Source of the DNA: a virus
Lineage: Duplodnaviria > Heunggongvirae > Uroviricota > Caudoviricetes
Virus record (IMG/VR): IMGVR_UViG_2579778894_000014
Coordinates: 1-15,503 of that record
Direction: 5' to 3' (one strand)
Length of the DNA: 15,503 nucleotides
The notes under the pieces are model-generated. The model was given only the letters and a program-made list of their open reading frames with translations, was not told the DNA's origin and did not search any database. A program made the translations under genes and the position numbers. Below are positions 2,507-15,210 of the stretch, piece by piece. The first letter of the stretch is position 1. The number at the start of each line of letters is the position of its first letter.

Positions 2507-2533
2507 AATAAAAAAGGCCCCCTTGCGGAAGCC
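2507..2533 (-). terminator. Intrinsic terminator downstream of the 113-aa ORF
   Basis: Read on the minus strand: GGCTTCC-GCAA-GGGGGCC (7-bp stem including two G-U pairs, GNRA-type loop) followed by TTTTTTATT. Confidence 0.45.
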
Positions 2534-2600
2534 TCTTCGTGATGAACTGTTTTCAACAGATATCAGGCTAATCGGCTTTTTGGAATTCCACAACTATTTT

Positions 2601-2942
2601 TTATCTTACCTTGATGCCTGATGCCGTCAGATGTTTACGACAGTCCTGAATACCTTCGTTATAACCCGCATCGTAGAAGCTATCCGGCTTTGCCTTCAGC
2701 GCAGGAAGCGTAACGCTGGTAGCTCTTCGTTCGGCCAGAACACCTGCCTGAAAGAGTGTCCACATCAACTGAACTGCTGAATCACAGTAAGTAACATCTT
2801 CACTGTACAATTCTCGTTCAATCCTGATGCCAAGTTGAGCCTTCATTGATGCGCCAATATTACCTTTGACCTGCAACGACAGGTCTGGGTACCTCTGTTC
2901 CATGAAGCTTTCAAATCTGTTGCGAACGCTGATCAGAGCCAT
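2601..2942 (-). CDS. Hypothetical protein in the Q-to-lysis gap
   Basis: 113-aa ORF starting 31 nt after the Q stop, with a GGGAA-type SD a few nt upstream. No signal peptide and no family recognised by me. Plausible protein composition. Confidence 0.6.
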   Translation of the reverse strand: MALISVRNRFESFMEQRYPDLSLQVKGNIGASMKAQLGIRIERELYSEDVTYCDSAVQLMWTLFQAGVLAERRATSVTLPALKAKPDSFYDAGYNEGIQDCRKHLTASGIKVR

Positions 2943-2973
2943 CTGGTTCCCTTACGTGATTGATTGCTGGATA

Positions 2974-3396
2974 TTATGCCGCCGAGCAGCTCCTACGCAA
3001 AGTCCTGATAGCCTGAGGCTTTGACTGAACCGACTGATCCATTTCGAGCACCACATCCAGCATGGCTAAGCAACCGTCAATAAATCCCTCTGCCGCCTGA
3101 AGCCTCTTCAGAACGTGGGTGTGAGATACGCCGAGCTTCTCACCCATCGCCCGCACGGGCATGGCCTGGACGTAATGCCACTCAAGGAGCGTGCACAGAT
3201 ACGGATCTTTTTTCTTCAGGCAGCTCATAGCGGAGTTGATGATAAGACCGTCATTGTCACTGCATTTCAGCCTTCCAGACTGCGTCGCGGGTAGCAGATT
3301 CTTAAACCCGGCTGCAACAGGAGGAAAGTAGACGCTACCACCTTCACTCGCTGCCCAGCCACCCCAGCGCTCTAAAACCTGTTGAATATTACGCAT
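2974..3396 (-). CDS. Q: Late-gene antitermination protein Q (Phage_antitermQ family)
   Basis: 140 aa. N-terminus MRNIQQVLERWGGWAA...AAGFK and later KRLQAAEGFIDGCLAMLD resemble E. coli prophage Q proteins (QuuD-like) as I recall them. GAGGT SD upstream. Lies upstream of and co-directional with the lysis and packaging genes. Confidence 0.8.
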   Translation of the reverse strand: MRNIQQVLERWGGWAASEGGSVYFPPVAAGFKNLLPATQSGRLKCSDNDGLIINSAMSCLKKKDPYLCTLLEWHYVQAMPVRAMGEKLGVSHTHVLKRLQAAEGFIDGCLAMLDVVLEMDQSVQSKPQAIRTLRRSCSAA

Positions 3397-3441
3397 AGCT
3401 CTGACCTCTACGTTTTGCTACGTTTGGAAATTTTCTACTAC

Positions 3442-3672
3442 TCAATACTCGTTGAATGTCAGGTGGCCGCTAACACTGACGTTTGGCCCGTCAGATAACA
3501 CAAGCTGGAAATTGTCGTCGCAAACAGAGCAGCCGAGGTCAATAACTACCGTTTTGTCGTGTTTATGCGCTCGCATGGCGACATCGCGAATAAACACGCT
3601 GTTACTAGCGCAGCGTGGGCAGGTAATTTCGTTATTTCCGTCGATATGATTTTTTAATCCTGAAACTTTCAT
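3442..3672 (-). CDS. Small zinc-ribbon protein (CxxC...CxxC), function unknown
   Basis: 76-aa ORF with GGAG SD 8 nt upstream of the ATG at 3672. Paired cysteine motifs CPRC and CSVC. Sits between the iteron array and Q. Confidence 0.6.
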   Translation of the reverse strand: MKVSGLKNHIDGNNEITCPRCASNSVFIRDVAMRAHKHDKTVVIDLGCSVCDDNFQLVLSDGPNVSVSGHLTFNEY

Positions 3673-3721
3673 GTTGTTTACTCCAGCTAGTTATTTGCAA
3701 ATATTTGCAAGTTAATTTCCG

Positions 3722-3987
3722 GGTGACGGCTAGGTGACGCGTAATTACATATCCGTCACCTGCTGCAAAGCGCGCCATATAAAGCCTGAAGATGTTTTAG
3801 GTGACAGGTGACGGTTGATTTTAGTTCTATATATATATAAGCGATCGTATAATACCTAAAATACACACTCTCGCGTATATAGTTTTAAATTCTGCCGTCA
3901 CCTGTCACCTTTAGCACATTCCCCATTGTTTTATATATACTTTTTAAGGTGACGCTTAAGCGTTTTGCCGTCACCTAGCCGTCACCT
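3722..3987. repeat. Mirror-symmetric iteron array (10 GGTGAC/GTCACC hexamers) flanking an AT-rich core; candidate replication origin
   Basis: GGTGAC at 3722, 3733, 3800, 3807, 3948; GTCACC at 3755, 3897, 3904, 3970, 3981. Outer pairs are spaced 11 bp, inner pairs 7 bp, and all positions are mirror-symmetric about ~3854. The outer arms are near-perfect inverted repeats (GGTGACGGCTAGGTGACG). The centre 3814-3896 is AT-rich with a TATATATATA run. TTGCAA boxes at 3695-3710 and 4002-4017 flank the array. It lies immediately 3' of the replication-protein gene. Confidence 0.6.
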
Positions 3988-3989
3988 TT

Positions 3990-6251
3990 TTACAATCCAG
4001 ATTGCAAAATTTCGCAAGATTTATATATTTCGCGCAATTCTTCGTTGCTGAAATCGTTATTTTTTACAAGAATCCAAATCCTATATACAAACCCGTCAAT
4101 TTTTACGCGTACGGGTTCCCGCTTTGTTCTTTCTTTCAAAATGCGAGTAATATGCTTCTGGTTAATTTCTACATCCATTCCTGCTTCTGCCAGTATTGCG
4201 TTAACAATTTGTTGATAAGTCATTGCTGGCACAGGCGGATTATCCAGGATTTCAATAAGAGCAGCCTCCACATCGCTCTTATTGCTTTCAATCATCAGAA
4301 GGCGTTCTTTCGTCTCGGGGGCGCGCTGCCAGTTAAAGCGAGACAGGTCAACGCCCATTAGATACCAGTACACCTGGGCGATAAAGTCGCTGTCGCTTAG
4401 CGCACCGTACAGGCTGGCGTAATGCTCTTCAGTTGCGGCGAAGTCAGGGCCCCCCAGCACAGCTATACGTCGGTCTTCCTCTGGCAGCGCCAGCGCATCA
4501 AAGTGGTTGGTGTAGAACAGAAAGCCGGTGTATATATCCATCGTTTTTTTGCTGCCATATTTGCGGTTCACTTCAAACCGTGGTTCTGTCAGCACGTCAC
4601 GGATCTTATCGTTCACCTCATACCGCTTATCGTTTTCGCGCACCTCGTCAATGGTGCATAGAAGTGTATTGTACAGATAGTCATGGAACTGGTTATCGCA
4701 CAGGATCTTCATGCGAGTACGAGCACAGTTCCACGGGCCAAGCACGCGCTCCATTAACTGACTGACCCATCCTCTGCCCGTACCATGTGCGGTAGCCACA
4801 TGCAGAATAGAAATCGGGCATCGACGCTCCGGACGCTGAACCATCCACCCCAGACGGGCGATGAAAAACTCGCGCTGCCAGGCATCAGGTACCAGATACG
4901 CCATATGATTAAGGAACGTGGACACCTTACTTGTATCCGCTGTACGTGGATGCTCAGGCATATAAAATTCGTTTATCTCAAACCGCCCGTCGAAACGCTC
5001 GATAATACGTCCCGCACCGGGCTTATAGCCTGTCGTCTCAGCAATCTTCTTATGCCGATGCTCTATCCACCGTTTGGTTGCGGGAGTTGGTTGTCCTTTC
5101 CCTTCTGGCGGGAACTGGTAAGGCGCCATCAGGTTTTTGAACGACTTCATATCCATCATGCACTGATATGGCGGTCGGCTAAGATCACATACCTGGTCAC
5201 CCTCGATGACGTAGATAAAGCGTTCCAGAAAATGAGCTGTCATATCTGTATTAATATCGGTAAATTCAGGCTTATCGCCATCTTCAGCCACCGTGAGATC
5301 TTCGAACAGGGATTGCGTATAGCCGTAGCCTTCCAGCCAGTCGGCATCAGTAAGCCCCGCATCGGTGTTGTGCATGCTTTTAAAATGTCCCTGTTCAAAT
5401 CCCCCCGTCCCTTTTGGGAAATACTTAATGGATGTTTCGCTGCAACCGTTGCTGTATTCTGACTCATCCCGAAACGGTTTCAGATTGCGGGAACCATCAG
5501 AGCTGACTGACAGAGTCCACCCGTTCGCGTCAAGCCAGTCGGCGACATCATCTGTCGCGGAAGGATCAACACAGGAAAGGTCACGCTGACGTCCTGCACC
5601 TGCGGTATAGCTGTCTTTCACGGGTAAGTTATCCGCCAGACGCTGCCACAGGCTTTCGAGCTGTTCAGATGTAATTTTCAGAGGTTCGCCGGGCAAACCG
5701 CTGTCCCACTGAATACGTTCGCCTGCCGGATGGGTACCACAAGCCACAAACTGCTGGCCCTTAGCGAGCAGCTCTATTTGTTTGTTTTCGCCTTCCAGGC
5801 GGTGACCACGTTTACGGTAGTCGCCATCAACAGCAATCAGGTACAGGCATTTATGACTGTCAGCCCGCCAGCGACGTGGCGGAAGTTCCCCCAGGCATGA
5901 TAGGATAATATTGCGTACGATCTCCTGCATCCCGGCGTCATTGATATCGCAGTCCAGAGCCACCACCCCGTCGCCAGTACGAACGCAAATACCGTAATCG
6001 GGTTCGTTCGACCACCGGGCAAAATCGTTTTCCGTAACAACATAGTTAGCCCAGTCGGGGATACCAACAACCTTACGTTGGCCATTGTAGCGACTGGGGG
6101 TTTTGCCGAAATTATGAGACAGCTTGCTATTAGGCGACAGTTCTGCACAGGGATTGGACACCACAGGTAAAAGCCTGTCTGTCATCCCCAACACCAGATC
6201 GAAGTAGAACCACTCATCGGGCGTAGCTCCCCATGGTTTGTTATCAGACAT
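3990..6251 (-). CDS. Replication protein, primase-like (primase-polymerase-type N-terminal region; P4 alpha-like size and context)
   Basis: 753-aa ORF whose start overlaps the stop of the Cro-like gene, suggesting translational coupling. The N-terminal region contains VVALDCDI (a DxD-type catalytic-like motif) and GTHPAG. hhhhDE-like TIDEV is present in the C-terminal half. I could not find a canonical Walker A GxxxxGK[ST], so helicase activity is not supported from sequence. Iteron array lies immediately downstream. Confidence 0.65.
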   Translation of the reverse strand: MSDNKPWGATPDEWFYFDLVLGMTDRLLPVVSNPCAELSPNSKLSHNFGKTPSRYNGQRKVVGIPDWANYVVTENDFARWSNEPDYGICVRTGDGVVALDCDINDAGMQEIVRNIILSCLGELPPRRWRADSHKCLYLIAVDGDYRKRGHRLEGENKQIELLAKGQQFVACGTHPAGERIQWDSGLPGEPLKITSEQLESLWQRLADNLPVKDSYTAGAGRQRDLSCVDPSATDDVADWLDANGWTLSVSSDGSRNLKPFRDESEYSNGCSETSIKYFPKGTGGFEQGHFKSMHNTDAGLTDADWLEGYGYTQSLFEDLTVAEDGDKPEFTDINTDMTAHFLERFIYVIEGDQVCDLSRPPYQCMMDMKSFKNLMAPYQFPPEGKGQPTPATKRWIEHRHKKIAETTGYKPGAGRIIERFDGRFEINEFYMPEHPRTADTSKVSTFLNHMAYLVPDAWQREFFIARLGWMVQRPERRCPISILHVATAHGTGRGWVSQLMERVLGPWNCARTRMKILCDNQFHDYLYNTLLCTIDEVRENDKRYEVNDKIRDVLTEPRFEVNRKYGSKKTMDIYTGFLFYTNHFDALALPEEDRRIAVLGGPDFAATEEHYASLYGALSDSDFIAQVYWYLMGVDLSRFNWQRAPETKERLLMIESNKSDVEAALIEILDNPPVPAMTYQQIVNAILAEAGMDVEINQKHITRILKERTKREPVRVKIDGFVYRIWILVKNNDFSNEELREIYKSCEILQSGL

Positions 6252-6254
6252 GGG

Positions 6255-6455
6255 TTACGCCTTTTGTCTAGCTGTCACTTCCTGAAAAAGCTTTTCTATC
6301 GCACGTACTGTAGAAAAGCGAGGGTCAGAATGAACCCCGGTGAGAAGCCGACTAATAGAAGACTGCTTCACGCCTGCAATTTCGGCAATTTGGTTTTGGG
6401 TATACCCTGAATCAATCAAGCTTTTGACCATCTCTTGTGGTGTTAGTCCGGACAT
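6255..6455 (-). CDS. Cro-like HTH (XRE-family) DNA-binding protein
   Basis: 66 aa with helix-turn-helix signature QNQIAEIAGVKQSSISRLL. GGAGA SD 7 nt upstream. Divergent from the CI-type repressor across a 141-bp region and first gene of the rightward replication operon. Confidence 0.75.
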   Translation of the reverse strand: MSGLTPQEMVKSLIDSGYTQNQIAEIAGVKQSSISRLLTGVHSDPRFSTVRAIEKLFQEVTARQKA

Positions 6456-6596
6456 ATTTAAGTCTCCACTTTCGTCTATAGCGCAAATTTATACGAAAAC
6501 GGATTATTCAGCAATACAGCAATTCTATATCATCCTGTATTAAAATATCCGATAACGCATAATCACCGTCCCTGTATACAACATGGATGAATCCAA
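6456..6596. promoter_or_regulatory. Divergent operator/promoter region of the immunity switch (OR-like)
   Basis: 141-bp AT-rich region between the divergent cro-like and cI genes. Contains ATAACGCATAAT at 6552-6563, a motif repeated twice at the promoter downstream of cI. Candidate -10 TATAAA (complement of 6488-6493) and -35 TTGCTG (complement of 6509-6514) for the cro-side promoter, but spacing is only 15 bp, so the exact promoter is uncertain. Confidence 0.55.
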
Positions 6597-7271
6597 ATGA
6601 TTGATACTACCGATATCCTTTCTCAAAACATCAAGTACCTGATGGACAAAACCAAGATAAGCTCGATAACTGAGCTGGCACGTCGGTTACAGCTGAACCA
6701 ACCAACGCTACACAGGCTGGTATCAGGAGAGGTGAAAGATCCGAAATACGCAACGTTAAAGCAGATCGCCGACTACTTCCACGTGTCACCAATAGACCTG
6801 GCAGAAAGGAGCCTTCAAGAAATGGAGAAAGAGGACGCGACAGGTATAAAAACGTATATTTCTCTTAGGTTTAATAAAGTACCTGTTTTGGGAAACACTC
6901 AGCTAGGCGTTGGAGGACTTTGGAGCGACACCCAATATTCAGTAGGTAGCAGTGATGGTTTCATATACTGGCCGACAAAGGATGAAGATGCATACGCCCT
7001 GAAATGTGTTGGTGATTCAATGATGCCTAGAATCAAAGAGGGTGAGTTCGTAATCGTCGAACCCAACCACGACTACACTCCTGGTGATGAAGTACTTGTG
7101 GTTACCCGGGACGGTGAGGTCATGGTTAAAACCTTCTTGTTCGAACGCGATGGCCTGTTCCATCTAATATCTGTAAATGAAGATCATCCACCAGTCAGAG
7201 TACCACGCGAAAACATTGAAAAAATCCATTACGTGGCGGGGATCGCCAAATCCGCGCTACGCATGTACTAA
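6597..7271 (+). CDS. cI: CI-type prophage repressor (N-terminal HTH plus C-terminal LexA-like S24 peptidase domain)
   Basis: 224 aa. N-terminal HTH (ISSITELARRLQLNQPTLHRL). C-terminal CVGDSMMPRIKEGEFVIV with the GDSM serine nucleophile and a downstream VMVKTF lysine, typical of LexA/CI autocleaving repressors. Confidence 0.85.
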   Translation: MIDTTDILSQNIKYLMDKTKISSITELARRLQLNQPTLHRLVSGEVKDPKYATLKQIADYFHVSPIDLAERSLQEMEKEDATGIKTYISLRFNKVPVLGNTQLGVGGLWSDTQYSVGSSDGFIYWPTKDEDAYALKCVGDSMMPRIKEGEFVIVEPNHDYTPGDEVLVVTRDGEVMVKTFLFERDGLFHLISVNEDHPPVRVPRENIEKIHYVAGIAKSALRMY

Positions 7272-7301
7272 CCTTTACAGTCTGATAACTTACCTCTGAT
7301 C

Positions 7302-7335
7302 AAACCGCTCTCCACAAGGGCGGTTTTCTTATTTG
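7302..7335 (+). terminator. Intrinsic terminator after cI
   Basis: AAACCGC (7302-7308), 11-nt loop, GCGGTTT (7320-7326), followed by TCTTATTT. Confidence 0.5.
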
Positions 7336-7355
7336 CAAAATAATTCATTTTCGTA

Positions 7356-7384
7356 TTGACACAAAATCCCATAACGCATATAAA
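7356..7384 (+). promoter_or_regulatory. Strong sigma70-type promoter, pL-like early-left promoter, overlapped by operator-like repeats
   Basis: TTGACA (7356-7361), 17-bp spacer, TATAAA (7379-7384). ATAACGCATA (7371-7380) overlaps the spacer and -10, and ATACCGCATAAT (7389-7400) sits just downstream. Confidence 0.5.
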
Positions 7385-7420
7385 TACGATACCGCATAAT
7401 TAATGCATTTTCTAATACCA

Positions 7421-7432
7421 GCTCTTTAACAA
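7421..7432 (+). promoter_or_regulatory. boxA-like antitermination element in the early-left leader
   Basis: GCTCTTTAACAA matches the rrn/lambdoid boxA core (UGCUCUUUAACAA) as I recall it, about 30 nt downstream of the predicted transcription start. Confidence 0.45.
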
Positions 7433-7577
7433 ACAGAACCGCGTGACAGGTAAGCCGCAGTGCTCCTGGCAAAACGAAATAGCACCCGATGGGATCGAGG
7501 TAAGCGCCGAGTCCGTATGCGTACGGTAAGCGTAGAGGACAACACCGCGACGAACTGATAAGTCACGCAAGTTGAAA

Positions 7578-7606
7578 CGCCCCGATGATGGGGCGCTTAG
7601 TTCCTT
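7578..7606 (+). terminator. Hairpin with weak U-tract (possible leader terminator or pause site)
   Basis: CGCCCC-GATGAT-GGGGCG (6-bp stem) followed by CTTAGTTCCTTT. Confidence 0.3.
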
Positions 7607-7698
7607 TAACTCTGGGTGACCGGAAGGGTACCCATGCTTAAAGAAATTACTGGTTGTAAGGATCGTAATCCGTGATTGCCTTCCCCGGATTTTCATCT

Positions 7699-8217
7699 TC
7701 AGAAGGCAGTCGGGCCTCTAAAGCATTTCGGGTTGAACAGATAGGAAGCCCTACAGTACGAACAAACCATATTAACGACTCGCCCAAGGCCTGGCTTAGT
7801 AACCAGACCTTCCGCTTGCAATATAGATTTTCTCTTTTGCTCGTAGCAATTGGGACAAATATAAACCGGAGATTGGTCAGCATCTGCAGAAAGCTTGCTG
7901 CGATAGACCAGAGTACCCCGCATAGGCTGGTAAAGTTCATAGCTCGCCGCTTCAGCGGCCCAGTTCTCTTGCTTTACTTTCTCATTTTCCAGTTCAACAA
8001 TTTTCTCCTTAGCCGCAATCAGCAGCTCCTGAAGCGACATTTGCTGCATCTGAACATCCATTAGCTTATCGAGTAAGATGTGCGTCTTCTCTTTAACTGC
8101 ATAGTCGACAGTCAGATTCTGAATCTCTCTTGCTGCTCCAACCGCGCTTTTAATTGCTCCTCCCACACCGGATAACGATTCAGTTATCCGGGAAAGAATT
8201 CCTTTTTCTTCAGACAT
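7699..8217 (-). CDS. Hypothetical coiled-coil protein with C-terminal zinc-ribbon (CPNC...CSYC); cI-adjacent accessory gene
   Basis: 172-aa ORF on the strand opposite to the early-left transcript. Central heptad-like region (LQELLIAAKEKIVELENEKVKQENW) and C-terminal CxxC...CxxC. GAGAGA SD-like sequence upstream. Its promoter region carries two direct repeats ACTGTAGGGGT at 8234-8244 and 8268-8278. Confidence 0.65.
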   Translation of the reverse strand: MSEEKGILSRITESLSGVGGAIKSAVGAAREIQNLTVDYAVKEKTHILLDKLMDVQMQQMSLQELLIAAKEKIVELENEKVKQENWAAEAASYELYQPMRGTLVYRSKLSADADQSPVYICPNCYEQKRKSILQAEGLVTKPGLGRVVNMVCSYCRASYLFNPKCFRGPTAF

Positions 8218-11410: not shown

Positions 11411-12040
11411 TCACTCAGGAATCTTAATCTTTCTCAATTCTTTATTTAGTTCACAGATCTTTTTCTTAGACGGGAAAGTATCATACATCCAAAAACCAAC
11501 AGTCTCTAAAACTATTATCATAACCATATACACAAGATAATTTAAAAGGCCTTCATTTTGCCCTATGGAAATAATGCAGATAATAGAAAAAAGGGTAAAC
11601 AGCACAAAACACAGAAAGGAAAACAGACGACTAATAATAAATAAAAAACCTGAAAAATCAACATTAATAAAAAACACTCCGTTATCTTTCTCTATATAAT
11701 TCTGAAGCTTAATCAACTGATTTATATACTGTCTTTTTTCTAATCTATTGCAAATGTAAATAACATCTCTTCGGTTATAAGATGATTGCAATTTCAGCGC
11801 ATCACGAATAATTTTATCATTTATTCTTTTTTCTATGGCACTCTTATCCTCCTCATCCAGATAACGTTCATACTTAACTAAATATAAAATTAACTTCTTA
11901 ACATATTTAGGCTCTTTATACTTATAATTAAAAATGATCTTTCTTATCCAGACTCCCATAACAATCAAACATGAAAAAATATATCCAGCTATTTTCTCCA
12001 GATGCTCTGTATGGTCAATCAAGTATTGGATCATATGCAT
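11411..12040 (-). CDS. Membrane protein of unknown function in an AT-rich inserted segment (moron)
   Basis: 209-aa ORF on the opposite strand to the flanking replication genes. The segment ~11400-12080 is conspicuously AT-rich (roughly 30% GC by eye) against ~50-55% in the neighbours. Predicted N-terminal TM (IAGYIFSCLIVMGVWI), a Lys/Glu-rich middle region and 2 C-terminal TM helices (FLFIISRLFSFLCFVLFTLFSIICIISI; LVYMVMIIVLETVGFWM). Confidence 0.65.
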   Translation of the reverse strand: MHMIQYLIDHTEHLEKIAGYIFSCLIVMGVWIRKIIFNYKYKEPKYVKKLILYLVKYERYLDEEDKSAIEKRINDKIIRDALKLQSSYNRRDVIYICNRLEKRQYINQLIKLQNYIEKDNGVFFINVDFSGFLFIISRLFSFLCFVLFTLFSIICIISIGQNEGLLNYLVYMVMIIVLETVGFWMYDTFPSKKKICELNKELRKIKIPE

Positions 12041-12086: not shown

Positions 12087-14150
12087 ATGTCCAATATACT
12101 ATGGGGCGACCTGGAAACCTATTGCGAAATCCCTATTACGAACGGTACCCATGCGTATGCCGAAGGCGTTGAAGTGATGCTTTTCGCATGGGCTATCAAC
12201 GACGGGCCAGTAAACGTGTGGGATATCACTGCCGGTGGTGGTATTCCACACGGCTTATACGAAGCAATCGCAGACCCTGAAACCCTGCTTTATTTCCATA
12301 ACTCTCACTTCGACCGCACCGTTCTGCGTTATGCAATGCCGCGCCTGGCACCGCCAGTCGAACGTTGGCGCGACACAATGGTGCAGGCGCTGGCGCACGG
12401 CCTCCCGGGGTCTCTGGGGGAACTCTGCGAAATACTCGGCGTCCCGCAAGACAAAGCGAAGGACAAAGAAGGTAAAGCGCTGATCCAGCTGTTCTGTAAG
12501 CCACGCCCGAAAAACAGCAAACTGCGTCGGGCCACCAGTAAAACCCACCCGGAAGAATGGCGGCGCTTTGTTGCTTACGCCGGACTGGATATCGAGGCAA
12601 TGCGCGAAGTCTATAAACGTCTGCCGAAGTGGAATTATCAGGGGACAGAACTGGCGCTCTGGCATCGTGATCAGCAGATCAACGACCGGGGCGTCTGCAT
12701 GGACATTCAACTCGCGCGCGCTGCGATCGAAGCGGTAGACCAGGAGCAAAAGCGCCTGGCAAAGCGTACACAGGAAATGACTGATGGCGAAGTGCAGGCA
12801 GCCACACAACGAGACGCGTTGATTAAGCACATTGTTGAATCCTACGGTGTGGAGCTACCAGACATGCAACGCAGTACTCTGGAACGTCGTATTGCCGACC
12901 CCGATTTACCATCTGCCGTGAAAGAACTGCTGGCTATCCGCCTGCAGGCCAGTACTACCAGCACCAGTAAATACAAGGCACTGATGAAAGGCGTAAGCCA
13001 CGACGGGCGCTTACGCGGTACGCTACAGTTCTGCGGGGCGTCACGTACCGGTCGTTGGGCCGGACGGCTATTCCAGCCCCAGAACCTTCCCCGCCCTTCA
13101 CTAAAACAGGAACAAATAGACGAAGGCATCGAAGCACTGAAAGCCGGATGTGCAGACCTGCTGTTTGACAATATCATGGAACTAACCAGTTCAGCGTTAC
13201 GTGGCTGCATTATCGCGCCAACAGGCAAAAAGCTGGTGGTAAGTGACTTGTCGAACATTGAAGGCCGTATGCTGGCATGGCTGGCGGGAGAAGAATGGAA
13301 ACTGAATGCATTCAGAGAGTACGACGCCGGAACGGGTCCGGACTTATATAAACTGGCGTATGCAAAAGCTTTCGATATTGCACCAGATGATGTTGATAAA
13401 CACATGCGTCAGATCGGTAAAGTCATGGAACTCGGTCTGGGTTATGGTGGTGGTGTGTCGGCCTTCATCACTTTTGCACTGGTTTACGGTCTCGATCTCG
13501 ACGAGCTGGCGAACGCCGCACTACCAAACATTCCCCGCGATGTTATCCGCGAGGCGAAAAGCTGGTACGACGAATCGGTTAAACGCAAGTCAACCTACGG
13601 GCTTTCTGAACGGGTATTTATCGCCTGCGACTCACTTAAACGTCTCTGGCGCCGGGCGCATCCCGCGACCTGTGATTTCTGGTACGAACTGGAGCGCACC
13701 GTCCGCACTGCAATCGCCACACCGCAAAAAACATTGTATTGCGGTTATCTTAAAATCCGCCGCGATGGCGCGTGGCTGCGCATACAGCTACCATCCGGAC
13801 GCGCTGTATGCTACCCGTCTCCGGTTATCGAAAAAGGGAATATCACCTACATGGGGGTTAACTCTTATTCGCGTAAATGGCAACGACTCAAAACCTACGG
13901 CGGAAAGCTGGTGGAGAACATCACCCAGGCGGCCGCCCGCGACATTCTGGCCGGAAACATGCCGCTTATCGAAGATGCCGGTTACAGCATTGTGCTGACG
14001 GTACACGACGAGGTGATCACCGAAGCACCTGACACAGAAGATTTCAACGATAAAGCGCTTTCCGCGCTTCTCTCCACTGACCCCGAATGGGCGCCCGATA
14101 TCCCACTGAACGCTGGCGGTTTTGAGGCGTACCACTACAAAAAAGATTGA
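12087..14150 (+). CDS. Family A DNA polymerase (PolA-like) with N-terminal 3'-5' exonuclease domain
   Basis: 687 aa. Exo motif WGDLETY near the N-terminus. Polymerase motif A ([20 protein letters not shown]), motif B ([16 protein letters not shown]) and motif C (VHDEV). Confidence 0.9.
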
Positions 14151-14214
14151 TATAACTCACCTTATCGAGCTATGGCGACATGCTGAATTCGAGTAAATTA
14201 AAGGAACAATACTT

Positions 14215-14976
14215 ATGCAGGAACTAACTGAAATGCCGATCACCTATCCATACCCGAGAGAAACTTTTCCTGACTTTTTGAGGGAGTGTGGGTTCACCAA
14301 TTTTTCCCACGAACAGCGTGAGACTTGTGACTGCTATCGTTTAACGAATGGCGTAATTGTTAACCTTTACACCACCCGGACCATTCAGTTTCAAGGTAAC
14401 CCTCAAGAACGTCCCAATGTTGAAACTGCAATAATGACCCATTTAGGAACGCCGCCCACGGCAACACCACTAGCCGTAGAACAGCCATCTGAGCTCCCCA
14501 AAAAGATATTCATTGTTCACGGCCATGACCATACTGCAAAGGAGCAACTTGAGCTAATCCTTCATAAACTTGGATTACCAGACCATTTCATTTTGCAGAA
14601 TACGGGAGGGACTGGACTCACCATTATTGAAGAGCTTGAACGTGAAATTGGGCAAGGACAAACTGCTACCCGTTTCGGGATTGTTCTTTTGACACCTGAT
14701 GATATGGGATACTCAAAGCGCGCCGGTGAAGCAGAAATCCAACCCCGCGCAAGACAGAACGTTGTACTCGAGATGGGTATGCTTCTTTCGTCCTTAGGGC
14801 GCAGCAATGTAGCAATCCTTCAGAAACAGCACCTAGAACAGCCTTCTGATGCTAACGGGATTTTGTATCTGAATTTCAACGACCATGTACGTGAAACAGT
14901 TCCTCGTCTAGTGCAACGGTTACAAAATTCTGGTTTCGAATTTACACAAGCTCAAATAGCTAACGCTTCCTCGTAA
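14215..14976 (+). CDS. Two-domain protein: unknown N-terminal domain plus C-terminal TIR-like Rossmannoid domain (CAP12/PycTIR-type family)
   Basis: 253-aa ORF with AAGGAA SD upstream; last gene of the operon before a strong terminator. The C-terminal ~150 aa contains KKIFIVHGHDH, GGTGLTIIEELE, FGIVLLTPDD and NVVLEMGMLLSSLG, which I recognise as the pattern of prokaryotic TIR-like nucleotide-binding domains (conserved Glu followed by Gly). The N-terminal ~95 aa has no recognised family. Domain assignment is from memory, not a search. Confidence 0.6.
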   Translation: MQELTEMPITYPYPRETFPDFLRECGFTNFSHEQRETCDCYRLTNGVIVNLYTTRTIQFQGNPQERPNVETAIMTHLGTPPTATPLAVEQPSELPKKIFIVHGHDHTAKEQLELILHKLGLPDHFILQNTGGTGLTIIEELEREIGQGQTATRFGIVLLTPDDMGYSKRAGEAEIQPRARQNVVLEMGMLLSSLGRSNVAILQKQHLEQPSDANGILYLNFNDHVRETVPRLVQRLQNSGFEFTQAQIANASS

Positions 14977-14999
14977 TTACCCCTTATTGTTGATTACAA

Positions 15000-15023
15000 C
15001 CCTGCATCGCGGGGTTTTTTATT
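15000..15023 (+). terminator. Intrinsic terminator ending the early-left operon
   Basis: CCCTGC-ATC-GCGGGG hairpin (15000-15014) followed by TTTTTT (15015-15020) and ATTT. Confidence 0.6.
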
Positions 15024-15210
15024 TGGGAATAAAAACCCTATGTCATTTAAATACCGGGACAGTCCGCTTTATTACCGGACTGTGCGGGAGGCTTTGCACC
15101 TTGAACAGTCCGGCGGGTACGACCGGGCGATGCAGGTCTGGGCCAAAGCGAACGTCGGTTTGATTTTTGTCTGATGCAGAACATGCGCGAAAAGCGTAAG
15201 GAGGTGGACG

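What the first reader, a model, noticed from the sequence alone, without database searches (positions are those of the whole stretch)
14215..14976. Phage-borne TIR-like domain protein with an unrecognised N-terminal domain at the end of the early operon
The C-terminal half carries the motifs of prokaryotic TIR-like nucleotide-binding domains (IFIVHGHD, GGTG.TIIEELE, IVLLTPDD, NVVLEMG). That family includes NAD-depleting effectors of Thoeris, CBASS (Cap12) and Pycsar (PycTIR). Here it is fused to a ~95-aa N-terminal domain (MQELTEMPITYPYPRETFPDFLRECGFTNFSHEQRETCDCYRLTNGVIVNLYTTRTIQFQGNPQ) that I cannot place. The gene is the last in the operon, appears lower in GC than the polymerase gene by eye, and is followed by a strong terminator, so it looks like a cargo gene. 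It could be a single-gene prophage defence or abortive-infection effector, or a phage counter-defence enzyme acting on nucleotide signals.
Basis: partly seen in the sequence, partly recalled or inferred. Interest (0 to 1): 0.8.

Follow-up and report, generated by a model that had tools for sequence, protein, structure and literature searches.

The report
Prophage cargo TIR defence-candidate gene
A temperate E. coli phage carries, as an optional 0.9-kb insert, a single gene joining a small domain of the kind that recognises RNA/DNA hybrids to an NAD-destroying TIR domain; it is most likely an untested anti-phage "suicide" switch, already catalogued only as a candidate.

Summary

The whole protein matches PADLOC candidate family PDC-S35 (E=7e-109). 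I found no paper that tests it.

It is cargo. Only 37 of the 159 E. coli genomes that carry this prophage polymerase have it, and ~0.9 kb (gene plus terminator) is a clean insert between PolA and the next gene. It is not the last gene of the operon.

Homologues occur sporadically across many phyla, in prophages, integrative elements and defence islands, with no universal partner. New here:
- 12 of 80 loci have an RNase HI gene directly adjacent.
- The same N-domain is also fused to dCTP-deaminase defence proteins and to a multi-pass membrane protein.

Most likely function: a single-protein abortive-infection NADase. The trigger may involve RNA/DNA hybrids or RNase HI; that part is inferred, not shown.

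The parts
14151..15036 (+). ~0.9-kb moron cassette (intergenic leader, TIR gene, own terminator). It is absent from most related E. coli prophages.
   Evidence: blastn against TIR-less relatives L015 and L016 aligns the window up to 14138 and resumes at 15037. The junction alignment shows that the PolA stop codon is followed directly by the ANR gene in TIR-less prophages.
14201..14205 (+). Shine-Dalgarno-like AAGGA, 9 nt before the ATG
   Evidence: Read directly from the sequence. 'aaaggaac' is also present upstream of the Serratia copy L011.
14215..14976 (+). 253-aa ORF, a member of the PDC-S35 family (TBP-like domain + TIR)
   Evidence: PADLOC PDLC05003 E=6.8e-109 over res 10-253; PHROG 16442 E=2.4e-109
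14236..14445 (+). N-terminal TBP-like domain (res 8-77; alpha-beta4-alpha), the putative sensor
14446..14502 (+). Low-complexity Pro/Thr/Ala-rich linker (res 78-96), variable in length and sequence
   Evidence: pLDDT <50 at res 80-92. The linker is the most variable and gapped part of the alignment.
14503..14973 (+). CAP12/Pycsar-clade TIR domain (res 97-253), the predicted NADase effector
14770..14772 (+). Codon GAG for Glu186, the predicted catalytic glutamate (motif RQNVVLEMG)
   Evidence: Invariant in 39 sequences. It aligns with the Glu of RDNVVFEFG in Cap12 (7un8, 9lmq) and of RDNVHLEFG in PycTIR (8jsj).
14998..15024 (+). Intrinsic-terminator-like hairpin (8-bp stem, 3-nt loop) plus T-run, inside the cassette
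   Evidence: The Serratia and Providencia prophage copies have their own hairpin + T-run after the gene.
12087..14150 (+). Context: phage family-A DNA polymerase, directly upstream, marking the left edge of the insertion slot
15040..15174 (+). Context: ANR-family regulator remnant (frameshifted), marking the right edge of the insertion slot
   Evidence: RefSeq annotates it as frameshifted. It has 83-88% nucleotide identity to the intact ANR gene of TIR-less relatives.

Best explanation
The gene is optional cargo (a moron) of a temperate E. coli prophage integrated beside yfhL. It encodes a one-protein anti-phage defence candidate of the PADLOC PDC-S35 family.

Shown:
- The architecture is a TBP-like N-domain of the RNase HIII-N / RnlA type, a flexible linker, and a CAP12/Pycsar-clade TIR domain with the conserved glutamate intact.
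- The gene is an insertion present in about a quarter of related prophages.
- Homologues occur sporadically across many phyla in mobile elements and defence islands, with no universal partner gene.

Inferred:
- In a lysogen the N-domain keeps the TIR domain off until a superinfecting phage supplies a cue.
- The cue lets the TIR domains oligomerise and hydrolyse NAD+, which aborts the infection.
- The cue is most likely connected with RNA/DNA hybrids or with RNase HI. The nearest structural relatives of the N-domain bind RNA/DNA hybrids. Its nearest sequence relative, the RnlA/LsoA NRD, binds RNase HI. In 12 of 80 loci the gene is directly adjacent to an RNase HI gene.
For: - Glu186 is invariant and aligns with the Glu of three solved NADase TIRs.
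- The model has a beta-hairpin (res 163-178) before the catalytic helix. This matches the C-C loop hairpin that bioRxiv 10.64898/2026.04.30.722052 describes in SfTIR-STING.
- Family: PDC-S35 full length, E=6.8e-109.
- Cargo: TIR gene in 37 E. coli genomes against polymerase in 159; clean insertion with its own terminator. Divergent copies sit in the same or a nearby slot in Serratia, Providencia, Salmonella and other E. coli prophages.
- Defence or mobile contexts elsewhere: integrase with Mrr and PemK; DUF4062 with a reverse transcriptase and toxin-antitoxin pairs; a TrwC element; HsdM neighbours.
- No universal partner in 80 loci.
- Sensor-like behaviour: mean identity is 34% in the N-domain against 75% in the TIR domain. 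The same N-domain is fused to dCTP-deaminase defence proteins, a multi-TM protein and unknown C-termini.
- RNase H link: PF00075 genes abut the TIR gene in 12/80 loci from four phyla, in otherwise unrelated neighbourhoods and in both gene orders.
- Literature: the RNase H3 N-domain binds only RNA/DNA hybrids (PMC4132731). RNase HI binds the RnlA NRD and is needed for RnlA activation (PMC5308261). TBP-like domains are fused to bacterial Schlafen defence nucleases (PMC13056530).
Against: - No experiment on this family was found. PDC-S35 is only a candidate.
- No sigma-70-like promoter is detected in the cassette leader (manual reading is equivocal). The gene is co-directional with the replication genes, so expression in the lysogen is unproven. 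It may be transcribed only with the early lytic operon.
- The N-domain is neutral to acidic (net charge -6 to +4; -2 in the window), unlike a typical nucleic-acid binder.
- Only 2 of the 5 hybrid-contacting residues of Ta-RNase H3 are conserved, and that alignment has E=1.6.
- The window itself has no linked RNase H gene, and 68 of 80 loci lack one.
- The inter-domain arrangement in the model is uncertain (pTM 0.54).
Confidence: 0.6

Rival explanations
1. A phage-beneficial lytic-cycle or counter-defence enzyme. It would be transcribed with the early replication operon, and its TIR domain would degrade NAD+ or NAD-derived or nucleotide immune signals, or exclude competitors during lytic growth, rather than protect the lysogen.
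For: The gene is co-directional with the polymerase gene, directly downstream of it, with no recognisable promoter of its own. It holds the same slot in Serratia, Providencia and other E. coli prophages.
Against: It is absent from ~77% of closely related prophages. Only 3 of 50,697 phage records carry it. Most homologues lie in non-phage bacterial islands across many phyla. The full-length match is to a defence-candidate model.
Confidence: 0.12
2. A signal-producing TIR of the Thoeris ThsB type, which makes a cyclic ADPR-type messenger for an effector encoded elsewhere.
For: TIR domains with the same catalytic Glu can be signal generators (bioRxiv 10.64898/2025.12.03.692087).
Against: No conserved effector gene lies beside it in 80 loci or in the window. 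The TIR belongs to the CAP12/Pycsar effector clade PF10137, not to ThsB_TIR.
Confidence: 0.08
3. A role in nucleic-acid metabolism or in prophage maintenance rather than immunity. For example, a hybrid- or RNase HI-linked regulator of replication, or an addiction toxin that stabilises the element.
For: It lies in a replication module. An RNase HI gene is adjacent in 12/80 loci. The N-domain is shared with RNase HIII.
Against: It is dispensable in most related prophages. Its distribution is sporadic, in the manner of horizontal transfer, with defence-island neighbours. No antitoxin-like partner is conserved, and the antisense ORF is open in only 25/77 homologues.
Confidence: 0.1
4. A catalytically inert nucleotide-binding or adaptor TIR-like protein.
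For: Sources name it 'nucleotide-binding protein'. TIR-like and SLOG relatives can act as sensors (PMC9503650).
Against: The Glu186 motif and the surrounding residues are invariant across phyla. That argues for a conserved active site.
Confidence: 0.05

Closest known systems
PADLOC PDC-S35 (single-gene phage defence candidate; model PDLC05003)
   Same: Full-length match over res 10-253, E=6.8e-109. Same two-domain architecture, same length and single-gene organisation.
   Different: None at the sequence level; this gene is a member. The family has no published test or mechanism that I could find.
CBASS Cap12 (TIR-STING) and Pycsar PycTIR effectors
   Same: Same TIR clade (PF10137), conserved Glu, a beta-hairpin before the catalytic helix, and a sensor domain fused to the TIR domain.
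   Different: There is no STING or cyclic-nucleotide-binding domain and no cyclase gene nearby. The NCBIfam Cap12 score is 34.8 against a cut-off of 450. The sensor is N-terminal and TBP-like.
RnlA / LsoA (RNase LS) anti-phage toxins
   Different: The effector is a TIR domain, not a HEPN RNase. There is one TBP-like domain instead of two. There is no RnlB/Dmd-type antitoxin gene.
RNase HIII (RNase H3) N-terminal substrate-binding domain
   Different: There is no RNase H catalytic domain. Glu27, His28 and Arg32 are not conserved. The domain is not basic.
SpbK (ICEBs1) and other single-protein TIR abortive-infection systems
   Different: The N-terminal domain and the TIR clade are both different. 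SpbK is triggered by a phage protein (from my own knowledge, not checked in the paper). The trigger here is unknown.

Membership tests
Pfam PF10137 CAP12/Pycsar TIR domain | HMM score above the gathering threshold | tested here: met
   108.4 bits against a cut-off of 24.7, res 97-222, profile positions 1-118 of 119
Pfam PF10137 CAP12/Pycsar TIR domain | TIR (flavodoxin-like) fold | tested here: met
Pfam PF10137 CAP12/Pycsar TIR domain | Conserved catalytic glutamate | tested here: met
   E186 is invariant in 39 sequences and aligns with the Glu of Cap12 and PycTIR.
Pfam PF10137 CAP12/Pycsar TIR domain | NAD+ hydrolase activity on oligomerisation | not testable with these tools
   Needs biochemistry.
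PADLOC PDC-S35 | Full-length match to the family HMM | tested here: met
   PDLC05003 E=6.8e-109, res 10-253 against profile positions 3-245 of 245
PADLOC PDC-S35 | Single-gene system with no obligatory partner | tested here: met
   In 80 loci the commonest neighbour, RNase H, is adjacent in only 12.
PADLOC PDC-S35 | Anti-phage activity | not testable with these tools
   No published test was found.
CBASS Cap12 / Pycsar PycTIR effector | Cyclic-nucleotide sensor domain (STING, SAVED or cNMP-binding) fused to the TIR domain | tested here: not met
   The only other domain is the TBP-like N-domain. NCBIfam Cap12 scores 34.8 and 30.5 against a cut-off of 450.
CBASS Cap12 / Pycsar PycTIR effector | Adjacent CD-NTase or pyrimidine cyclase gene | tested here: not met
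   No such gene among the annotated neighbours or as a conserved neighbour in 80 loci.
Thoeris (ThsB) | Adjacent ThsA-type effector, and a ThsB-type TIR | tested here: not met
   No PF08937 hit and no conserved effector neighbour.
RnlA/LsoA toxin-antitoxin | HEPN RNase domain and an RnlB/LsoB antitoxin gene | tested here: not met
   Only the TBP-like domain is shared. The C-terminus is a TIR domain.
RNase HIII | RNase H2/3-type catalytic domain | tested here: not met
   Absent; the similarity is confined to res ~8-77.
TBP-like RNase HIII-N / RnlA-NTD domain superfamily | alpha-beta-sheet-alpha helix-grip fold with the aromatic...QG signature | tested here: met
TBP-like RNase HIII-N / RnlA-NTD domain superfamily | Binding of RNA/DNA hybrid or of RNase HI | not testable with these tools
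   Indirect evidence only: RNase H gene adjacency in 12/80 loci and 2 of 5 contact residues conserved.

The most novel reading that the evidence does not exclude
The small TBP-like domain is a general infection sensor of bacterial immunity. It either reads RNA/DNA hybrids or guards RNase HI, and it has been wired to at least four kinds of suicide effector: TIR NADase (this gene), dCTP deaminase, a multi-TM membrane protein, and HEPN RNase in RnlA/LsoA; Schlafen fusions are reported in the literature. On this reading, the long-puzzling dependence of RnlA on RNase HI and the RNase HI genes abutting PDC-S35 genes are two faces of one sensing principle. The prophage gene in this window would give an easy E. 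coli model in which to test it.
Probability: 0.3. Interest if true: 0.8.

Novelty: new variant of a known kind. Interest (0 to 1): 0.58.

Why it matters
Single-protein TIR NADases with a fused sensor are a known kind of bacterial immunity. For this widespread family (thousands of homologues in many phyla) neither the function nor the trigger has been tested.

Placing the N-terminus in the RNase HIII-N / RnlA family turns an anonymous candidate into a concrete hypothesis. So do the RNase HI gene adjacency and the fusion of the same domain to other effectors. The hypothesis is that the protein senses RNA/DNA hybrids or the state of RNase HI.

If that is correct, it would add a nucleic-acid-structure or guard-type cue to the short list of known phage-sensing mechanisms. 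It would also help to explain why RnlA needs RNase HI. The E. coli prophage copy is small, natural and easy to test genetically.

Tried and rejected
- Literature searches for PDC-S35, PF10137, COG4271, RnlA+TIR, TBP-like+TIR and RNase HI+TIR found no description or test of this architecture. SfSTING E84A was not found, so I do not cite a residue number for the catalytic Glu of SfSTING.
- The promoter scan found no sigma-70-like site upstream of the gene. Comparing the leaders of homologues by eye was equivocal, so expression timing stays open.
- The antisense ORF 14562..14807 (also called as a gene in Serratia locus L011) is open in only 25 of 77 homologues. I rejected it as a chance ORF.
- The Foldseek search of the N-domain against viral structures (BFVD) gave nothing at E<=0.001. 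The afdb50 library was unavailable.
- Pfam and PADLOC scans of the unannotated neighbouring ORFs gave no hits, so no hidden partner was found in the window.
- Membership of CBASS, Pycsar or Thoeris was rejected because there is no sensor domain or partner gene.
- GC content as evidence of foreign origin is weak. The gene is below PolA but near the window mean.
- The net charge of the N-domain does not support a generic nucleic-acid binder. I kept this as evidence against the hybrid-sensing idea.

Full report
**1. What is in the sequence**

The ORF 14215..14976 (+) exists as described and encodes 253 aa. An AAGGA ribosome-binding site lies 9 nt before the ATG. A terminator-like hairpin (14998-15016, 8-bp stem) with a T-run follows the gene.

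The gene's GC content is 45.7% (GC3 40.6), against 54.2% (GC3 57.3) for the polymerase gene. The window mean is 47.9%, so the contrast with PolA is real but is not a strong compositional anomaly.

**2. Where the window comes from**

The window is a temperate E. coli prophage.
- The TIR gene is 98.8-100% identical to chromosomal copies in 37 of 5,426 complete E. coli genomes, and to three Escherichia phage vB_EcoM records.
- In E. coli 357900 the element is integrated next to yfhL.
- The gene order on the + strand is: hypothetical, DUF2800 nuclease, DUF2815 ssDNA-binding protein, (reverse-strand ORF), family-A DNA polymerase, TIR gene, frameshifted ANR regulator, 64-aa ORF, VRR-NUC, SNF2 helicase, HTH. 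The integrase follows on the opposite strand.
- The TIR gene is therefore inside the replication module, not at its end.

**3. The gene is cargo**

- The polymerase gene of this prophage is found at 95-99% identity in 159 E. coli genomes, but the TIR gene in only 37 of them.
- In TIR-less relatives (L015, L016) the polymerase stop codon is followed 5 nt later by an intact ANR gene, then DUF4406 and VRR-NUC.
- blastn aligns the window to these relatives up to 14138 and again from 15037. The junction alignment shows a clean insert between the PolA stop and the ANR start.
- The insert of ~0.9 kb holds a 64-nt leader, the TIR ORF and its own terminator.
- More divergent copies occupy the same slot after PolA in related prophages of Serratia (70% identity), Providencia (63%) and other E. 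coli (72%). In Salmonella (57%) the copy sits in a different slot of the same module.
- The Serratia and Providencia copies also carry their own hairpin terminator.
- I found no convincing promoter (by eye). Whether the gene is expressed in the lysogen is open.

**4. The C-terminal domain**

- Residues 97-222 match Pfam PF10137 (CAP12/Pycsar TIR) with 108 bits against a cut-off of 24.7.
- An AlphaFold2 model built on 39 homologues has mean pLDDT 77.6.
- A profile of the family aligns the invariant Glu186 (RQNVVLEMG) with the Glu of RDNVVFEFG in two Cap12 structures and of RDNVHLEFG in PycTIR.
- The model has a beta-hairpin (res 163-178) just before the catalytic helix. A recent preprint describes such a hairpin in the C-C loop of SfTIR-STING, together with a catalytic glutamate and activation of CAP12/Pycsar TIRs by oligomerisation (10.64898/2026.04.30.722052).
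- The gene is not a CBASS, Pycsar or Thoeris component. It has no cyclic-nucleotide sensor domain, its NCBIfam Cap12 scores are far below cut-off (34.8 against 450), and no cyclase or ThsA-type gene is nearby.

**5. The N-terminal domain can be placed**

- Residues 8-77 fold as helix, four-stranded sheet, helix. The model of the domain alone has pLDDT 86.7.
- Sequence evidence is weak but points the same way. The N-domain profile's best PDB hits are the NRD of LsoA (E=0.039) and the N-domain of Aquifex RNase HIII (E=0.046). Pfam RnlA_toxin is matched by 11 of 30 family members and DUF3378 (the RNase HIII N-domain) by 4 of 30, all below the gathering score.
- One homologue carries a precomputed RnlA_toxin annotation (P0113).
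- The domain is therefore a TBP-like domain of the RNase HIII-N / RnlA NTD-NRD type.
- Residues 78-96 are a variable, low-confidence linker.

**6. What is published about that domain type**

- In RNase H3 the isolated N-domain binds RNA/DNA hybrid only. Tyr43 stacks on a deoxyribose and the Gly52 amide contacts a 2'-OH; Glu27, His28 and Arg32 also contribute (PMC4132731).
- The low-significance HMM alignment (E=1.6) to that protein puts the family's always-aromatic position (Tyr52 in the window) on Tyr43 and the invariant Gly61 on Gly52. The other three contacts are not conserved.
- In RnlA, TBP1 is needed for RNA substrate binding (PMC8266594).
- E. coli RNase HI associates with the NRD and is required for RnlA activation (PMC5308261).
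- TBP-like domains are also fused to RnlA-family HEPN domains and to 1.5% of bacterial Schlafen defence nucleases (PMC3710099, PMC13056530).

**7. The family as a whole**

- The protein matches PADLOC candidate PDC-S35 over its full length (E=6.8e-109) and PHROG 16442 of unknown function.
- About 2,700 cluster representatives are related.
- A scan of one genome per species found relatives in 237 genomes. The best 80 span Proteobacteria, Acidobacteriota, Verrucomicrobiota, Chloroflexota, Bacteroidota, Planctomycetota, Cyanobacteria and others, at 44-68% identity.
- The TIR domain is strikingly conserved (mean 75% identity to the window protein). The N-domain is not (mean 34%). That is the pattern expected of a constrained effector and a fast-evolving sensor.
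- Contexts outside the prophage are an integrative element with a TrwC relaxase, an integrase-Mrr-PemK island, and an island with DUF4062, a reverse transcriptase and two toxin-antitoxin pairs. HsdM methylases are neighbours in several loci.
- Only three phage records out of 50,697 carry the protein.

**8. New observations on partners and fusions**

- I clustered all flanking ORFs of the 80 loci. The TIR protein is the only widely shared gene.
- The next cluster is RNase H (PF00075, E~1e-43 to 1e-46). By tblastn it lies directly next to the TIR gene in 12 of 80 loci.
- It is downstream, with overlapping or abutting stop and start codons, in 11 loci: Verrucomicrobiota, Chloroflexota (Dehalococcoidia, Caldilineaceae) and Vicinamibacterales. 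It is upstream with a 37-nt gap in a Hymenobacter.
- The flanks of these pairs are unrelated, apart from two closely related genomes (L091, L093) and a short contig (L089). The pair therefore behaves as a two-gene module.
- PADLOC does not list the RNase H as a component.
- A profile of the N-domain alone finds 842 proteins in 1.84 billion representatives. Most of those I scanned are TIR fusions. Others join the same N-domain to the dCTP-deaminase defence protein (P0206, PADLOC E=7e-173), to a multi-pass membrane protein (P0264), or to unknown C-termini. One has tandem N-domains.
- The window itself has no RNase H gene. E. coli has a chromosomal rnhA (my own knowledge).

**9. Interpretation**

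Shown:
- a two-domain TBP-like + TIR protein with the conserved glutamate intact;
- its status as a PDC-S35 member;
- its status as prophage cargo with its own terminator;
- a sporadic, cross-phylum, mobile-element distribution with no universal partner.

Inferred:
- it is a single-protein abortive-infection NADase protecting the lysogen;
- the N-domain is the sensor that controls TIR oligomerisation;
- the cue involves RNA/DNA hybrids or RNase HI.

The last step rests on fold similarity, two conserved contact positions, the RNase H gene adjacency and the RnlA precedent. Against it stand the non-basic N-domain, the weak alignment and the absence of a linked RNase H in most loci. The lack of a visible promoter keeps a lytic-cycle or phage-beneficial role alive as the main rival.

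**10. Verdict**

- the N-domain is recognisable;
- the gene is not last in the operon;
- the family is already catalogued as a candidate.

It is a new variant of a known kind (sensor-fused TIR effector). I did not find the link to RNase HI and RNA/DNA hybrids in the literature searched, and it can be tested directly in E. coli.

Noticed in passing
L030, L071, L072, L083, L084, L089, L091, L093, L095, L096, L104 (about 6700-7250 in the full-length loci; 1060-1542 in L089 and 3655-4059 in L071); L088 5392-5868: An intact RNase HI gene (PF00075) directly abuts the TBP-TIR gene in 12 of 80 loci from four phyla. It is mostly downstream with overlapping stop and start codons, and once upstream. The neighbourhoods are otherwise unrelated. 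PADLOC does not list it as part of PDC-S35.
   Followed up: partly
P0206 (617 aa), P0163, P0222, P0264 (428 aa), P0201, P0231, P0248, P0171: The same TBP-like N-domain is fused to other C-termini: the dCTP-deaminase defence protein, a multi-pass membrane protein and unknown domains. One protein has it in tandem. This suggests a portable sensor module.
   Followed up: partly
window 11411-12040 (- strand): A 209-aa ORF on the opposite strand between DUF2815 and PolA is strongly AT-rich (28.9% GC) and has hydrophobic stretches. It has no Pfam or PADLOC hit. The same slot holds DUF4145 in Serratia, Mrr_cat in Providencia, and HNH, AntA or other genes in other E. coli prophages. It looks like a second variable cargo hotspot.
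   Followed up: partly
window 15040-15174; L015 7070-7581; L016 3615-4256: The ANR-family regulator after the cassette is frameshifted in this lineage. TIR-less relatives instead have an intact ANR plus DUF4406 after PolA, and a Nmad5 gene before it (putative nucleotide-modification genes). The two prophage lineages therefore differ by more than the TIR insert.
   Followed up: no
plasmid collection: 1,144 plasmid records (Klebsiella 615, Escherichia 366) encode relatives of the TIR domain. All but two places cover less than 80% of the query, so most appear to lack the TBP-like N-domain. They are annotated 'nucleotide-binding protein'. This is a large, apparently unstudied plasmid-borne branch of the same TIR clade.
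   Followed up: no
window 14215-14235: The first six residues (MQELTE) occur only in close enterobacterial prophage copies. Some close relatives, such as P0004, start at the equivalent of Met7, and distant homologues start near the equivalent of residue 10. The true start may therefore be the ATG at 14233.
   Followed up: no
window 14562-14807 (- strand): An 81-aa antisense ORF lies inside the TIR gene and was called as a gene in Serratia locus L011. The frame is open in only 25 of 77 homologues, so it is probably a by-product of the conserved sense sequence.
   Followed up: yes
window 2520-5632 and 7607-8180: These stretches (the antiterminator Q to primase region, and small ORFs right of the repressor) do not align to prophage L002, except for a 73-bp match at 3350-3422. 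L002 is otherwise 97-98% identical over most aligned segments (89% over 5632-7607). This is ordinary mosaicism of lambdoid-type modules.
   Followed up: no
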